A DNA stretch of 64,000 nucleotides from a virus. The DNA is taken from IMG/VR virus record IMGVR_UViG_3300025102_007089, positions 16,614 to 80,613 of that record; one strand, written 5' to 3'. Below the pieces are notes generated by a model. The model made no database searches. It worked only from the letters and a program-made list of their open reading frames with translations, and was not told the DNA's origin. The position numbers were made by a program, and so were the translations under genes. Below, in pieces: positions 18,259 to 39,878 of the stretch (position 1 is the first letter of the stretch; each line of letters opens with the position of its first letter).

Positions 18259-18591
18259 GTGGCTAACAACGGATATTACCCTTATTTTACAGGAATTGCT
18301 GATAAACAGTATTCACCTAACTTAAACACTGATGCACAAGTAAACAAGTATAAGGAGGATGAAGCTAATCAAAAAGCACCGCCCATACTTCCTTATGAAT
18401 TACAGCAGATACAGCAACTCATAGGAGATACCTTTGTCTCCCTAGCGGAACTAAGGGCTATGCTTACAGCAGCGTCTGATAAAAACGGTATAGATAGCAG
18501 TGTTATTGATAGTATTAATCAGAAAATAGATAAAGTTAATGAAATATTAACACTTGAAATTCCTGAAGATCTATCTAAAATATCTATATGA
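18259..18591 (+). CDS. Hypothetical protein
   Basis: ORF with GTG start after the late promoter. Confidence 0.65.
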   Translation: MANNGYYPYFTGIADKQYSPNLNTDAQVNKYKEDEANQKAPPILPYELQQIQQLIGDTFVSLAELRAMLTAASDKNGIDSSVIDSINQKIDKVNEILTLEIPEDLSKISI

Positions 18592-18995
18592 GAATAGGTA
18601 TCTCTCTTTTAATAGTTTTAATAATATCAGCAGCATTAGGCTATGCTTTTAGAAACGTACTAGGATTTTTTGAAACTGCTATATTAGCAGCATTTTTACA
18701 ACTAATAGCTCCTTCAGTCTGGAATGCTATTTTTAAGCATAAAGAAAAAGTACTTCAATTAGAGAGTGAAATTAATTACTTGGTAGAACTTAACACAGCA
18801 GAAGTCGACTGTCCTTGCGGTAATTACAAATTTAATGAAATTGTAGTTATAACAGATAGTACAGTTGAAAGTAAATGTCCTAAATGCGGAGGAGTTTATA
18901 GATTAGTACCTTCAGTTAAAGCAATACTTACTACTGAAGTGGTAGATGTAAATAAAAAGCCTTTCGATGATATAAAAATTGGAAAGGAAATATAA
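18588..18995 (+). CDS. Membrane protein with C-terminal Zn ribbon
   Basis: Two hydrophobic N-terminal segments, then CPCG and CPKCG. Confidence 0.65.
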   Translation: MRIGISLLIVLIISAALGYAFRNVLGFFETAILAAFLQLIAPSVWNAIFKHKEKVLQLESEINYLVELNTAEVDCPCGNYKFNEIVVITDSTVESKCPKCGGVYRLVPSVKAILTTEVVDVNKKPFDDIKIGKEI

Positions 18996-37607: not shown

Positions 37608-37645
37608 TTTTACTGTAAATATTTATAGATTTAATAAATAATTAT

Positions 37646-38176
37646 ATGTCTAAACAACACAGAAATTTCGGTAAAGATATTCACCAACTAAACGAGACGT
37701 ACAACGAGATGTTGAACGGAGCGCATATGTTTCAAAATACAGGTAATCCTCAAGCTGCAGCTGATAGTATGAAGGAAGAAGATAGACCATTTTCTCCTAG
37801 TCACGGTGCACAAGATAAGATTCCATTTGAAGATAACGAAGATGATAAAGGTATTGATCATCTTAAGCATGCTTTAAAGATGCTCGGTAAGGCTAAGCTT
37901 ATGAAGCATCTCGAAGAGATGGAAGAGGATATCGAAGATGAAGAGTTTAATTTTAAAGGTGGTGATATTGAACACGACTGAGCTTCTCACATTAAACATC
38001 CTCAGTTTGGGGAGTCAGTCAAGAAAGTCCTTCACCATAGCTTAACTTCAGCAGGCGTTATTGAAGAATATTATGTTGAACATAACGGTAAATTAGCAAA
38101 AGTACTTGCTGAAGAAGTTACAGTAGTTCAATTAAATGAGCATGGTGGTAGCGGTAAGAAGAAGAAAAAGAAATAG
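37646..38176 (+). CDS. Putative selenoprotein / UGA-readthrough late protein, 176 aa (ORF track stops at TGA 37979-37981)
   Basis: In-frame TGA at codon 112 (IEHD*ASHIKHPQFG) is followed by 64 sense codons to TAG 38174-38176, with no in-frame ATG/GTG/TTG. A hairpin overlaps or follows the TGA. Confidence 0.7.
37976..38028 (+). promoter_or_regulatory. Candidate bacterial-type SECIS / recoding hairpin
   Basis: GACTGA(37976-81)/TCAGTC(38015-20) plus CTTCTC/GGGGAG. Alternative apical hairpin TCCTCA-GTT-TGGGGA has its loop G 24 nt after the TGA. Confidence 0.6.
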
Positions 38177-38209
38177 CGCAATTACGGCCGATCTGGCATA
38201 AATAAATAT

Positions 38210-38788
38210 ATGGCTAAAGAAAAGAAGTTTGTAAAGCTCTTTGAAAATTATATGCGTAGATTTGAACGCGGCGGCTTTTTAGTAGGCGACGTTTTTAAGT
38301 TTAATGATGACTTTAAGAGTCATGACGCATATAAAGGTTTAGGAGATAACATTAAAGAGCTTATAGATGACATGATTGAATCAGGTCTTCATATTAGAGT
38401 TGTTAATATAAAAGATACAGACCCAGCTCGTTATCCTTCAAATGATCAAACTTCTTCTCTTAAAACAGTTTTAGACATAGCCTTAGATACCGGTGGAGGT
38501 CGTTTTTCTCATTATTGTTCTGTACCCTGTGGGTTAGGTCAACCTGTTCAATATGCTCCAAATTTATTACCTATTCCTGACGCTATGAGACGTAAGGATA
38601 ATGTTAATATTAAACCTGAAGAAGCAGAAGAGGATAAAGATAATATTCAAAATAAGACAGACAGGGGTAATGGTGAGCTGAGTAATACTGAAAGATCTTT
38701 ACCTAAGGACAATACCCAAATTCCATCACAGCCAGCTACCCCATCTCAAGAAGTAAATTCTTATACTAAGCAGTATATCCCTAGTTAG
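38210..38788 (+). CDS. Hypothetical late protein
   Basis: ORF 5 nt after CATAAATA. Confidence 0.7.
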   Translation: MAKEKKFVKLFENYMRRFERGGFLVGDVFKFNDDFKSHDAYKGLGDNIKELIDDMIESGLHIRVVNIKDTDPARYPSNDQTSSLKTVLDIALDTGGGRFSHYCSVPCGLGQPVQYAPNLLPIPDAMRRKDNVNIKPEEAEEDKDNIQNKTDRGNGELSNTERSLPKDNTQIPSQPATPSQEVNSYTKQYIPS

Positions 38789-39878
38789 ACCAGTTAGAGG
38801 TAACTCTAGCTACTCCCCATGGTAGATTATTAACTACAGCATAATTAAAGAGTAATTCTGGACCTCCTGTCCCTTCTCTAGTTGCTAAGACATTCCAGCC
38901 AGTGAATGTATCATAATACTCAGATGTATAGCTTATACCGGCTTTACCAGGCCATGTAATTACAAAATAGAGATTATTTAGATTTTGCCCAAATCCCCAT
39001 TCAAGCATATTGTTGACCATAGCTGCTGGAGGTTCATTAGGATCAGTCGCTTTTTTAATTCTCTTAAATCCCGCAGGAGGCCAGGTAGTTATTATGCGCT
39101 GCGCCGGTAGCATATTGTTTGTAACAGACCATTTAGGAGCTTGTAAAAAGATAGCAGAAGATGATATTAACGTATAGCTATGATCTGTATTACCATCGCC
39201 TACCTTCTTCCACCCTTCAGTTAAAGGAGGAAATTGTTGCTTTAAAGTATAATAATATCCTTCCCATTTGCCTTCTCTTTGTATCCAAAATATATCACCC
39301 CTCGACTCATCTCCTTTTAACAGACCAGGTGAACTACTAATGTTAGCTTCAGCAAATGAAATCGGCACAGGTGTTCCTCTGTTTATAAGAGTCCAACTCT
39401 TATTTGAAATAATATTATTGTTTGCTCTATTTACGAAGCCTCCTATAGCTAATCCCCAATCTTCATTTCTTTTTGATTCATAAAAGAATCCTCGTTTTAC
39501 CATTGTTCCAGAGACGTCTTGGTCGCCATAACCTACAGCTCTCCAACCTCGAGTTATAGGAGGAAATACATCTCCTCCCGGACTCCAAAAAATTTGTAAC
39601 CATGTACCGTCTTCATTTGGCACCCATATAATGTCAGCATTTGCTGGGTTAGTATTACCTAGTACATAAGCAGCAGAAGATGGTCCAAATATTTTACCTA
39701 TTGATCTAGATACACTTCCATTAGGATTGACTGATGTGTTAAGGCCTATAAGTGTTAAAGAGTTAGCTCTTATTCTCTCAACTTCAAAACCTGATAAGTT
39801 AGAGACAGTCTGGGCTCCTAAAGGGGATACTATTGCTAATAATAATATTAAGAGCCTTATTAATAATAAAGGCTTCAT
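38781..39878 (-). CDS. Exported protein with signal peptide and two internal repeats
   Basis: MKPLLLIRLLILLLAIVSPLGA-Q signal; repeated D(I)xW...W......FPP.T.GW..VG.G..D.S.T unit. Confidence 0.7.
   Translation of the reverse strand: MKPLLLIRLLILLLAIVSPLGAQTVSNLSGFEVERIRANSLTLIGLNTSVNPNGSVSRSIGKIFGPSSAAYVLGNTNPANADIIWVPNEDGTWLQIFWSPGGDVFPPITRGWRAVGYGDQDVSGTMVKRGFFYESKRNEDWGLAIGGFVNRANNNIISNKSWTLINRGTPVPISFAEANISSSPGLLKGDESRGDIFWIQREGKWEGYYYTLKQQFPPLTEGWKKVGDGNTDHSYTLISSSAIFLQAPKWSVTNNMLPAQRIITTWPPAGFKRIKKATDPNEPPAAMVNNMLEWGFGQNLNNLYFVITWPGKAGISYTSEYYDTFTGWNVLATREGTGGPELLFNYAVVNNLPWGVARVTSNWSN

What the first reader, a model, noticed from the sequence alone, without database searches (positions are those of the whole stretch)
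37646..38176. Candidate phage-encoded selenoprotein: in-frame UGA in an H-D-U-A-S-H motif with a SECIS-like hairpin
Seen in sequence: the ORF called as 111 aa ends at TGA 37979-81, but the same frame stays open for 64 more codons (ASHIKHPQFGESVKKVLHHSLTSAGVIEEYYVEHNGKLAKVLAEEVTVVQLNEHGGSGKKKKKK) to TAG 38176. This fills an otherwise unexplained ~200-nt gap in a tightly packed genome. The extension has no in-frame start codon and looks like a globular His-rich domain. The genome uses TGG for Trp and TGA as stop elsewhere, so this is site-specific and not genome-wide recoding. Established knowledge: bacterial Sec insertion needs UGA plus an immediately downstream SECIS read by SelB. From memory (unverified), related T4-like phage domains read H-D-C-A-x-H-V-x-H-x-x-(W/F)-G, i.e. 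Cys at this position, which is the classic Sec/Cys pair. Inference: a 176-aa late selenoprotein that borrows the host SelABCD machinery (no sel genes or tRNA-Sec in this window), with a possible His/Sec metal or redox site. Its N-terminus resembles the probable internal head proteins, so it may be packaged in the virion.
Basis: partly seen in the sequence, partly recalled or inferred. Interest (0 to 1): 0.92.

Follow-up and report, generated by a model that had tools for sequence, protein, structure and literature searches.

The report
Phage gene that encodes selenocysteine
A small late gene of this uncultured marine T4-like phage is read through an internal UGA "stop" that every related phage copy keeps exactly where cyanophage relatives have cysteine, and an RNA hairpin of the bacterial selenocysteine-insertion type always follows, so it most likely encodes a selenoprotein, which I found reported for no virus of bacteria.

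Summary

- **The site.** The ORF 37646-37981 stops at TGA 37979-81. The frame then stays open for 64 codons, with no ATG, GTG or TTG, to TAG 38174-76.
- **Conservation.** All 36 related viral loci I inspected and 76 of 76 marine metagenome loci keep TGA at this column. They fall into seven subfamilies. In some, only 23-30 codons precede the TGA.
- **Normal stop elsewhere.** TGA ends 19 of 90 ORFs in this genome, and it ends the same gene in one subfamily. Two relatives that are at least 93% complete carry no suppressor tRNA, tRNA-Sec or selD.
- **Translated downstream.** The codons after the TGA are under purifying selection (dN/dS 0-0.24).
- **Sec/Cys pair.** Every homologue without TGA has Cys there (H-D-C-A-T-H), including cyanophage copies. 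None has Trp.
- **Hairpin.** A hairpin with GU in its loop, meeting the published bacterial SECIS consensus, follows 41 of 42 distinct UGA sites. The background rate is 2.4%. Stem sequences differ between subfamilies. Cys forms and true TGA terminators lack it.
- **Fold.** The domain is a small SH3-like barrel with invariant His-x-Sec…His…His.

Selenium incorporation, the host and the host's Sec machinery are all untested. Earlier reports of this scan describe the same kind of gene on other DNA.

The parts
37634..37640 (+). ATAAATA box, like a T4 late promoter, 5 nt before the ATG, with no Shine-Dalgarno sequence
   Evidence: Read. The same box lies 4-7 nt before the start codon in subfamilies A, B, D and E. 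Promoter function is inferred, not tested.
37646..37978 (+). Codons 1-111: acidic, variable N-terminal part of the gene
   Evidence: This part is not conserved across subfamilies, where it is 23 to 115 codons long. No Pfam or PHROG family matches.
37979..37981 (+). In-frame UGA, codon 112: the proposed selenocysteine codon in the motif H-D-U-A-S-H
   Evidence: TGA at this column in all 36 viral and 76 of 76 metagenome loci. Cys (TGT/TGC) in distant homologues. Unchanged in independent contigs.
37996..38015 (+). SECIS-like hairpin: A18-U37 and C19-G36, bulged A20, stem UCCUCA/UGGGGA (37999-38004 / 38008-38013), apical loop G-U-U (38005-38007)
   Evidence: A hairpin of this class is present at 41 of 42 distinct UGA sites of the family, against 2.4% of codon positions in the background. 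It meets the bSECIS consensus quoted in PMC13188914.
37982..38173 (+). Codons 113-176: the translated continuation after the UGA
   Evidence: dN/dS is 0-0.24 in every subfamily. All five differences in contig X17 after the UGA are at third codon positions.
37973..38143 (+). Conserved small beta-barrel domain (SH3/KOW/Tudor-like) that spans the UGA. His(-2), Sec, Ala(+1), His133, Leu135, Gly139 and His168 (numbered on the 176-aa product) are invariant in the 13-row alignment of the Sec family (A2).
   Evidence: Alignments A2 and A3. AlphaFold2 model, mean pLDDT 77.7, five strands. Only generic small-barrel matches in the PDB.
38156..38173 (+). C-terminal run of six lysines
   Evidence: Lys-rich tails recur in subfamilies A, C and E and in several Cys forms. 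A nucleic-acid-binding role is inferred only.
38174..38176 (+). True terminator, TAG

Best explanation
The gene 37646-38176 encodes one 176-residue protein in which UGA-112 is decoded as selenocysteine.

Proposed mechanism: the gene is transcribed late in infection. When a ribosome reaches the UGA, the hairpin 18-37 nt downstream, with a G-U in its apical loop, recruits the host's SelB-GTP-Sec-tRNA(Sec). Sec is inserted and translation continues to the TAG.

The product carries a small SH3-like barrel. His(-2), Sec and two further invariant His residues probably form a redox or metal site, and a poly-lysine tail follows. The phage supplies only the gene and the SECIS. The tRNA, SelA, SelB and SelD must come from the host.

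Shown here: the conserved UGA, translation-type conservation beyond it, the Sec/Cys pairing, the SECIS-like hairpin, and normal use of TGA as a stop elsewhere.

Inferred: that the inserted residue is Sec, dependence on SelB, the chemistry of the site, and any virion location.
For: 1. TGA is kept at one alignment column in every relative: viral loci in subfamilies A-F and 76 of 76 marine metagenome loci, which add a seventh variant. Amino-acid identity across these falls to about 25-50%.

2. In subfamilies C and D only 23-30 codons precede the UGA. The invariant His(-2) lies upstream of it, so the domain spans the codon.

3. dN/dS after the UGA is 0-0.24.

4. Homologues without TGA all carry Cys. 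P0028 is 39% identical to the window's domain, with U aligned to C. L041 is 37% identical to L036. Cyanophages S-H38, P-SSM7, P-HM1 and ACG-2014d carry the Cys form. The codons are TGT or TGC. The 'W' shown at this site in database proteins comes from gene calls made with table 4: P0012's tail reads through L016's TGA terminator, and viral relatives of P0017 and P0042 have TGA there, while TGG encodes a real Trp in the same gene.

5. A hairpin of at least 5 bp, with a 3-5-nt loop holding GU and the G at +22 to +27, follows 41 of 42 distinct UGA sites. The same pattern follows 2.3-2.5% of codon positions in ORFs of three of these phages. Stem sequences differ completely between subfamilies: UCCUCA/UGGGGA, CAYCCA/UGGGUG, GCRCC/GGUGC and AGUGGAA/UUCCACU. 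Amino-acid changes such as FGE to FEG, Gly to Asp and Thr to Ala keep the pairing. Resampling synonymous codons gives P of 0.003-0.26 per sequence tested.

6. Controls lack the hairpin: Cys forms, the TGA terminators of subfamily C genes, and 27 of the 28 other TGA-ended ORFs of this genome.

7. The hairpin meets all four published bSECIS criteria (PMC13188914; MFE -7.7 to -11.6 kcal/mol).

8. TGA is an ordinary stop (19 of 90 ORFs). No UGA-suppressor tRNA or tRNA-Sec occurs in G000, in the 93%-complete G005 or in the 95%-complete G006.

9. A contig from a marine RNA library spans the whole ORF across the UGA.
Against: - No experiment shows selenium in the product.
- The host is unknown, so whether it has SelA/B/C/D and tRNA-Sec could not be checked. 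The family has no relative in 185,579 species-representative genomes.
- The hairpin is short (5-7 bp) and overlaps conserved Pro and Gly codons, which favour CC/GG pairing. The synonymous-codon test is only modest for subfamilies A-E (P 0.04-0.26).
- All close relatives carry TGA and the Cys forms are fairly distant (E 1e-7 to 1e-3 in the profile search).
- The family occurs in two T4-like lineages whose large terminases are only 31% identical. Several different hosts would therefore all need Sec machinery.
Confidence: 0.82

Rival explanations
1. Programmed UGA readthrough without selenium. A near-cognate tRNA (Trp, Cys or Arg) occasionally reads the UGA, perhaps helped by the downstream hairpin. 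The full-length protein is made at a low, regulated level and the short product is discarded.
For: The UGA is conserved and the downstream part is translated, which any recoding mechanism would explain. No Sec machinery was found in the phage and the host is unknown. A leaky stop is known in phage Qbeta, where the A1 protein is made by UGA readthrough (my own knowledge, not checked here).
Against: No homologue has TGG. The only sense codon ever found at this column is Cys. The hairpin has the specific features of a bacterial SECIS: G-U in a small apical loop at the right distance, in subfamilies with unrelated stems. I know of no hairpin-stimulated UGA readthrough signal in bacteria. A sense Cys codon with a weak start signal would lower expression more simply, yet no close relative uses one.
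Confidence: 0.11
2. Two separate products. Translation stops at the UGA and the downstream domain is made on its own by reinitiation or from a non-canonical start.
For: Gene callers in public databases sometimes start ORFs just after the UGA (fragments P0015, P0018, P0019, P0022, P0025, P0029).
Against: This window has no ATG, GTG or TTG in the extension. The invariant His two codons before the UGA and the predicted first beta-strand span the stop. In Cys forms the same stretch is one continuous sequence. In subfamilies C and D the upstream piece would be a peptide of 23-30 residues.
Confidence: 0.03
3. Artefact, pseudogene, or genome-wide reassignment of TGA (code 4 or 25, or a phage suppressor tRNA).
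For: Public protein databases show W at the site, as a table-4 translation would.
Against: The TGA is present in more than 100 independent assemblies, under purifying selection. TGA ends 19 of 90 ORFs here and ends the same gene in subfamily C. TGG encodes Trp 190 times. No suppressor tRNA is present in two genomes that are at least 93% complete.
Confidence: 0.01

Closest known systems
Bacterial selenoprotein genes with an in-ORF SECIS read by SelB (prototype E. coli fdhF; consensus bSECIS model as summarised in PMC13188914)
   Same: In-frame UGA, followed within the coding sequence by a small hairpin. A G followed by G or U lies in the first two loop positions, 16-37 nt from the UGA. Cys-containing homologues exist. 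TGA is otherwise a stop. Subfamilies D and E have the loop GGUC, which I recall, unverified, is also the fdhF loop.
   Different: The gene is carried by a virus of bacteria that has no tRNA-Sec, selA, selB or selD of its own. The protein family is not among described selenoprotein families. The stems are short (5-7 bp).
Cys-form domain of T4-like cyanophages and other marine phages (H-D-C-A-T-H-V-x-H ... H-[ST]-[LI] ... G ... Y-D-V ... E-H-x-H; e.g. Synechococcus phage S-H38, Prochlorococcus phages P-SSM7 and P-HM1, all annotated hypothetical)
   Same: Homologous small barrel with the same invariant His residues. It often ends in a Lys-rich tail and is also phage-borne.
   Different: It has Cys (TGT/TGC) where this family has UGA, and no conserved hairpin at that place. 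It is often the C-terminal module of much larger proteins.
Selenoproteins of eukaryotic viruses (poxvirus glutathione peroxidase homologues; the abstract of PMC1802603, seen, reports functional SECIS elements inside coding regions in higher eukaryotes)
   Same: A virus encodes a selenoprotein and relies on the host's Sec machinery.
   Different: Those use the eukaryotic SECIS/SBP2 system and are captured host enzymes. Here the signal is of the bacterial type and the protein has no cellular counterpart that I could find.
Genome-wide stop-codon recoding in phages (TAG to Gln code 15, TGA to Trp code 4; e.g. PMC9523058)
   Same: A phage reads a standard stop codon as sense.
   Different: There the reassignment affects many late genes and often comes with a suppressor tRNA. 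Here it is a single codon in a single gene, TGA is otherwise a terminator, and there is no suppressor tRNA.
T4 internal head proteins with an N-terminal capsid targeting sequence (PMC9026906; the sequence MKTYQEFIAE is from my memory)
   Same: Small, basic, late-expressed and poorly conserved proteins. Subfamily C starts with MKT[FY].E[FM]. In subfamily C the next gene overlaps the stop (ATGA) and starts MK[TNS]FK.[FY].
   Different: This window's own N-terminus (MSKQHRNFGK) shows no such motif. Cleavage and packaging are untested.

Membership tests
Bacterial-type selenoprotein gene (UGA + in-ORF SECIS) | In-frame UGA conserved among orthologues, with a translated, conserved sequence on both sides | tested here: met
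   All 36 viral loci and 76 of 76 metagenome loci keep TGA. dN/dS downstream is 0-0.24. The invariant His lies upstream.
Bacterial-type selenoprotein gene (UGA + in-ORF SECIS) | Homologues with Cys at the aligned position | tested here: met
   P0028, P0031, P0034, P0035, P0039, P0045, P0049 and L041-L049 carry H-x-C-A with TGT or TGC. None has Trp from TGG.
Bacterial-type selenoprotein gene (UGA + in-ORF SECIS) | bSECIS consensus (PMC13188914, Fig. 2 legend): apical loop 3-9 nt and upper stem 4-16 bp; G in the first two loop positions; 16-37 nt between UGA and loop; MFE at or below -7.5 kcal/mol | tested here: met
   Loops are 3-5 nt (GUU, CGUUU, AGUU, GGUC, GUC) and stems 5-7 bp. The loop starts 17-23 nt after the UGA. 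The MFE of the 51 nt from the UGA is -7.7 (window) to -11.6 kcal/mol. 41 of 42 distinct sites pass a strict version, against 2.4% background.
Bacterial-type selenoprotein gene (UGA + in-ORF SECIS) | The decoding organism has tRNA-Sec, SelA, SelB and SelD | not testable with these tools
   The host is unknown. The phage records have no tRNA-Sec or selD. selA and selB were not searched for. Scans of bacterial genomes gave no handle.
Bacterial-type selenoprotein gene (UGA + in-ORF SECIS) | Selenium demonstrably incorporated at the UGA | not testable with these tools
   This needs 75Se labelling, mass spectrometry or a selB-dependent reporter.
Genome-wide TGA reassignment (codes 4/25 or suppressor-tRNA recoding in phages) | TGA not used as a terminator; many in-frame TGAs; a matching tRNA | tested here: not met
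   TGA ends 19 of 90 ORFs. This is the only TGA-ended ORF with a long extension that no other ORF covers. No tRNA with anticodon UCA was found.
Programmed stop-codon readthrough (Qbeta A1 type) | Relatives carry a sense codon for the near-cognate residue (Trp), and both the short and the long product are functional | tested here: not met
   No TGG relative was found, only Cys. The short product would be 23-30 residues in subfamilies C and D. The mechanism itself cannot be excluded without an experiment.
T4-type internal head protein with capsid targeting sequence | N-terminal 10-residue targeting peptide cleaved by the prohead protease | tested here: inconclusive
   There is a CTS-like MKTY.EF in subfamily C and in the neighbouring genes, but not in the window's protein. 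The reference sequence is from memory. The concept is confirmed in PMC9026906.
SH3/KOW/Tudor-like small beta-barrel | Five-stranded barrel fold | tested here: inconclusive
   The AF2 model has five strands and pLDDT 77.7. The best PDB matches are generic: Foldseek E of 0.1 or worse, VIA Z of 4.6 or lower.

The most novel reading that the evidence does not exclude
This is a widespread, previously undescribed family of selenoproteins encoded by viruses of bacteria. The Sec/Cys state has switched at least twice, in two T4-like lineages that probably infect different bacterial phyla. Sec sits in a His-rich site of a lysine-tailed small barrel that is packaged with the DNA and injected. Production of infective phage would then draw on the host's selenium and SelB machinery in the selenium-poor ocean.
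Probability: 0.3. Interest if true: 0.92.

Novelty: new variant of a known kind. Interest (0 to 1): 0.82.

Why it matters
Selenocysteine decoding is known in bacteria, archaea, eukaryotes and a few eukaryotic viruses. I found no paper reporting a selenoprotein encoded by a bacteriophage. Three full-text searches found none. A 2026 review of the prokaryotic selenoproteome does not mention phages or viruses at all. A survey of marine trace-element use found few or no viral sequences among selenoprotein families.

If the reading is right, four things follow.

- A virus makes its own fitness depend on the host's Sec machinery and on selenium supply. That gives a new link between a trace element and viral production in the sea.
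- The SECIS of a phage gene becomes a host-range marker, because only Sec-decoding hosts can make the full protein.
- Standard gene callers systematically truncate or miss these genes, or mistranslate them with table 4 as 'W'. Phage selenoproteomes are therefore invisible in current databases.
- The H-x-Sec/Cys...His...His barrel is a new candidate redox or metal module, shared with cyanophages.

Tried and rejected
- **No family or cultured-phage match.** Pfam and PHROGs gave nothing meaningful for the 176-aa product. tblastn against 50,697 cultured or deposited phage records found no match to the Sec form.
- The codon behind 'W' in P0002-P0004 could not be read directly, so it was settled through viral relatives.
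- **tRNA near the gene.** The tRNA next to the gene in subfamily D is an ordinary tRNA-Arg(TCT), not tRNA-Sec. The sub-threshold RF01852 hit that I mapped (G002) is the tRNA-Leu(TAA) of L026. The others are 72-74 nt long and lie in the same tRNA cluster.
- **No phage selD.**
- **Rfam.** It has no usable bacterial SECIS model, and only noise matched.
- **Host search failed.** The neighbouring secreted protein (38781-39878) looks like Verrucomicrobiota proteins in the ESM Atlas (score 0.91). It has no relative found in GTDB genomes. The selenoprotein family has none either. psbA is absent from the Sec-form and the Cys-form contigs tested, so this says nothing decisive about hosts.
- **Fold searches.** They gave only generic small barrels.
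- **A labelling slip of mine.** In the tree I labelled four rows (P0014, P0019, P0025, P0029) as Cys forms. They are really fragments or variants of Sec-family genes, so that call's 'one clade' test and change counts should be ignored. Only the topology is used: A-E form one clade and F sits among true Cys forms.
- **An unresolved variant.** P0014 reads IEH-RTLKAP without the D-U-A-S-H-I stretch. Without its DNA I could not tell whether it is a real variant or a miscall.
- **A false alarm.** I suspected a second readthrough at 18588-18995 (TAA followed by 85 open codons). It is simply a separate small ORF with its own ATG five codons on.
- **Not done.** I did not make a formal covariation count on a structural alignment, because the hairpin sits in different registers in different subfamilies. 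The background-frequency test was used instead.
Full report
**1. The observation**

The window is bases 16614-80613 of an 80.6-kb IMG/VR record, estimated 38% complete. It has 32% G+C. It carries T4-type genes: baseplate wedge subunits directly upstream on the other strand, a clamp loader and a large terminase.

The ORF that starts at ATG 37646 ends at TGA 37979-81. The same frame continues for 64 codons to TAG 38174-76. The extension holds no ATG, GTG or TTG, and no other ORF of 60 aa or more covers 37982-38209.

Across the whole record, 90 ORFs cover 96.5% of the DNA. They end in TAA 59 times, TGA 19 times and TAG 12 times. TGG is used 190 times, and there is no tRNA gene.

Among 29 TGA-ended ORFs of at least 60 aa, this one is unique. 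It alone has both a long in-frame extension that no other ORF covers and a SECIS-like hairpin.

**2. Not an error and not private to this genome**

- Four near-identical viral contigs (93-96% amino-acid identity) keep the TGA.
- Distant relatives at about 50% identity keep it too.
- A profile-guided scan of IMG/VR gave 24 loci. Scans seeded with two database proteins gave seven more. Together with the loci that makes 36, and every one has TGA at the same column.
- A scan of metagenome contigs returned 80 marine loci. The motif could be located in 76 of them, and all 76 have TGA, in 41 distinct 75-mers. The other four are cut off at a contig end.
- The stretch occurs in marine metagenome runs from at least eleven studies.
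- Independent DNA contigs (X7, X11) and a contig from a metatranscriptome library (X17, about 95% identical, spanning 37646-38195) show no change at 37979-81.

I distinguish seven subfamilies by the sequence around the site:

| Subfamily | Motif around the site | Example loci |
|---|---|---|
| A | EHD-U-ASHIKHPQFGE | this window |
| A' | APQFEG variant | L083, L086 |
| B | EHD-U-ASHIKAPPFGE | L012, L013 |
| C | QHD-U-ATHIKHPSLGE | L014-L023, L028 |
| D | QH[TQRH]-U-AKTIAHPGLGEEDEEF | L024-L031 |
| E | EHN-U-ATHVAPVGAE | L034, L035 |
| F | AHN-U-ATHMEWKSSTDKEKYGD | L036-L040 |

**3. The sequence after the UGA is translated, as one protein with the part before it**

Pairwise dN/dS over the 48-60 codons after the UGA is 0 to 0.24 in every subfamily. 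All five differences between the window and contig X17 downstream of the UGA fall on third codon positions.

In subfamilies C and D only 23 or 30 codons precede the UGA, so the 'called' ORF would be a tiny peptide.

In the 13-row alignment of the Sec family, the invariant residues are the His two codons before the UGA, the UGA itself, the Ala after it, and further on a His, a Leu, a Gly and a His (A2). In the wider alignment with Cys forms and fragments, a His, a Gly and a His stay invariant (A3).

AlphaFold2 on this alignment gives a five-stranded small barrel (mean pLDDT 77.7) whose first strand runs across the UGA position. This excludes two independent products.

**4. TGA is otherwise a stop, so the event is site-specific**

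Besides the counts above, subfamily C genes end with KKKKK-TGA. That TGA overlaps the ATG of the next gene (ATGA) and has no hairpin after it. In subfamily F the same gene encodes a real Trp with TGG, three codons from the recoded TGA.

Two relatives are nearly complete: G005 (196.9 kb, 93%) and G006 (168.8 kb, 95%). They contain only ordinary tRNAs (Leu-TAA, Met, Arg-TCT; Ala, Pro) and one tmRNA. Neither has a tRNA with anticodon UCA, a tRNA-Sec above Rfam's threshold, or selD. The same holds for G000-G004.

Genome-wide recoding and a phage suppressor tRNA are therefore rejected.

**5. The Sec/Cys pair**

A profile search of 1.84 billion representative proteins found 44 hits. The sequences I read fall into three kinds.

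- **Full-length proteins with 'W' at the site.** These are gene calls made with table 4. P0012 continues through the TGA terminator of L016 and shows 'W' again there. The viral relatives of P0004, P0009/P0010, P0017/P0023 and P0042 all have TGA.
- **Fragments** that start just after the UGA.
- **True Cys forms,** at E of 1e-7 to 1e-3: H-S-C-A-S-H-V-K (P0028), H-D-C-A-T-H-V-K (P0031, P0035), H-D-C-A-N-H (P0045), H-D-C-A-E/T (P0039, P0049), and a two-domain protein (P0034).

Viral contigs with Cys forms use TGT or TGC. tblastn places Cys forms in cultured T4-like cyanophages (S-H38, P-SSM7, P-HM1, S-ShM2, ACG-2014d) and in viral contigs associated with single amplified genomes.

Direct pairwise alignments put the UGA opposite Cys. 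The window domain against P0028 is 39% identical over 71 residues. L036 against L041 is 37% identical over 78 residues. My substitution of C for U adds a little to these scores.

No homologue with TGG or any other sense codon was found.

In a maximum-likelihood tree of the domain, subfamilies A-E form one clade (support 99/96). Subfamily F sits among true Cys forms (90/88). This suggests at least two Sec/Cys switches. Four rows in that call were mislabelled by me, so only the topology should be used.

**6. The hairpin**

Counting the U of UGA as nucleotide 1, each subfamily has a hairpin. The three-part sequences are 5' arm, loop and 3' arm.

| Subfamily | Hairpin | Position |
|---|---|---|
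| A | UCCUCA-GUU-UGGGGA, extended by two pairs over a bulged A | 21-35 (18-37 with the extension) |
| A' | CCUCA-GUU-UGAGG | G of loop at +27 |
| B | GCUCCUC-CGUUU-GGGGAGU | G of loop at +27 |
| C | CAUCCA-AGUU-UGGGUG | 19-34 |
| D | CA[CU]CCA-GGUC-UGGGUG | 19-34 |
| E | AGCGCC-GGUC-GGUGCU, or GCACC-GGUC-GGUGC | loop at 21-24 |
| F | AGUGGAA-GUC-UUCCACU | 17-33 |

Every loop has G followed by U or G in its first two positions, with the G of the GU at +22 to +27.

The stems of A-D, E and F are unrelated in sequence and lie over different peptides (HP..G, APVG, EWKSST). Several amino-acid replacements keep the pairing:
- FGE to FEG turns a U·G pair into U-A.
- Gly to Asp in L114 turns U·G into U-A.
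- Thr to Ala in L040 turns U-A into U·G.
- The Gly codon is GGU where its third base pairs with A, and GGG where it pairs with C.

I defined a strict pattern: at least 5 contiguous pairs, a loop of 3-5 nt, GU starting at loop position 1 or 2, and the G at +21 to +28. It is met by 41 of 42 distinct sites. The exception has 4 pairs plus an extension. The same pattern is met at 2.47% of 16,553 codon positions in this window's ORFs and at 2.27% of 89,875 positions in G005 and G006. Even counting only three independent designs, chance gives about 1e-5.

A more conservative test keeps the protein sequence and resamples synonymous codons. It gives P of about 0.07 (A), 0.06 (B), 0.04-0.26 (C), 0.09-0.10 (D), 0.13-0.26 (E) and 0.003-0.006 (F). 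The Pro and Gly codons already favour pairing, so this null is harsh.

Cys forms show no consistent structure at the equivalent place.

The hairpins satisfy the four constraints of the published bacterial SECIS model: loop 3-9 nt and stem 4-16 bp; G in the first two loop positions; 16-37 nt from the UGA; MFE at or below -7.5 kcal/mol (PMC13188914). The MFE values run from -7.7 to -11.6 kcal/mol.

The loop GGUC and the bulge-plus-stem layout resemble what I remember of E. coli fdhF. That recollection was not checked.

**7. What it most likely is and how it works**

The best reading (confidence 0.82) is a phage-encoded selenoprotein. The phage supplies the UGA and the SECIS. The host supplies Sec-tRNA(Sec), SelB, SelA and SelD.

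The gene is probably a late gene. An ATAAATA box lies 4-7 nt before the ATG, without a Shine-Dalgarno sequence, in subfamilies A, B, D and E. C and F have ordinary ribosome-binding sites.

The conserved unit is the barrel, with His-x-Sec on strand 1, a His on strand 2 and a His at the end of strand 5, usually followed by a lysine-rich tail. This suggests a metal or redox site on a nucleic-acid-associated protein, but that is inference. PDB searches give only generic SH3, KOW and Tudor barrels.

Subfamily C proteins begin MKT[FY].E[FM]. In those loci the next genes begin MK[TNS]FK.[FY]. This resembles the T4 capsid targeting sequence (concept in PMC9026906; the sequence is from memory). Some members may therefore be internal head proteins. 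The window's own N-terminus does not show this.

**8. Rivals**

- Selenium-independent readthrough (0.11) explains the conservation and the translation. It does not explain the exclusive Cys pairing or the SECIS-specific loop.
- Separate products (0.03), and error, pseudogene or genome-wide recoding (0.01), are contradicted as set out above.

**9. Phage lineages and hosts**

The large terminases of G000, G001 (subfamily D) and G005 (E) are 76-77% identical. Their nearest cultured relatives are only 39% identical (Sinorhizobium phage phiM9; Pseudoalteromonas phage XG4 at 37%).

G006 and G007 (subfamily F) are 31-32% identical to these. Their nearest cultured relatives are Flavobacterium phage 'immuto' and Microcystis phage Mel-JY01, at 55-56%.

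The Sec form thus occurs in two distant T4-like lineages. None of the five Sec-form records tested has psbA.

The host is unknown. The only lead is that the neighbouring secreted protein resembles Verrucomicrobiota proteins. Whether the hosts decode Sec is the main untested link.

**10. Novelty**

Three full-text searches for phage selenoproteins returned nothing relevant. A 2026 review of prokaryotic selenoproteomes contains no mention of phages or viruses. A marine survey states that selenoprotein families have few or no viral sequences.

The mechanism is the known bacterial one. The carrier (a bacteriophage) and the protein family are new, so I class it as a new variant of a known kind.

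Earlier follow-up reports of this scan describe what appears to be the same H-D-U family, and similar families, in other phage genomes. Those are AI notes, and I do not count them as evidence.

Noticed in passing
L055:15777-16193 (G005, a 196.9-kb relative): ARAGORN calls a phage-encoded tmRNA with the tag peptide AANKVVDFVLPQAEPQFALAA, in a T4-like phage that also carries the selenoprotein gene. Its tag might help identify the host lineage.
   Followed up: no
window 38781-39878 (-): A 365-aa protein with a signal peptide lies two genes downstream of the selenoprotein gene. Its nearest ESM Atlas clusters are Verrucomicrobiota hypothetical proteins (score 0.91; 27 of 30 hits in that unnamed set of clusters). 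No relative was found in GTDB genomes by pattern scan. It is a possible host clue.
   Followed up: partly
L014:708, L015:2705, L016:2711, L020:2705, L023:2711, L028:2705: In subfamily C the selenoprotein gene ends in an ATGA overlap with a following gene. That gene's product starts MKTYREF, MKNFKQF, MKSFKEY, MKSFKSY or MKNFKQY. This looks like an operon of proteins with N-termini like the T4 capsid targeting sequence.
   Followed up: partly
window 37634-37640 and 38197-38203; relatives: An ATAAATA box (like the T4 late promoter) lies 4-7 nt before the ATG with no Shine-Dalgarno sequence, which suggests leaderless late mRNAs. The only contig from an RNA library that was laid begins exactly at the ATG (37646) and ends at 38195, just before the next such box. 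Contigs cannot prove transcript ends.
   Followed up: partly
G005:18499-18867 (-): A 122-aa ORF ending in TGA is followed by 55 open codons that no other ORF of at least 60 aa covers, but no SECIS-like hairpin follows it. It could be a small unannotated gene or another recoding site.
   Followed up: no
L041:910-1980 and L042:841-2250: In some phages the Cys form of the domain is the C-terminal module of a larger protein whose N-terminal part carries an H-E-L-V-H-H (HExxH-like) motif. This is a possible metallopeptidase-like fusion partner.
   Followed up: no
public protein databases (P0002-P0004, P0009-P0013, P0016, P0017, P0020, P0021, P0023, P0026, P0042): Gene callers have translated these short contigs with table 4. 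The Sec codon appears as 'W', and some proteins run on through true TGA terminators, as P0012 does. This is a systematic annotation artefact that hides the family.
   Followed up: yes
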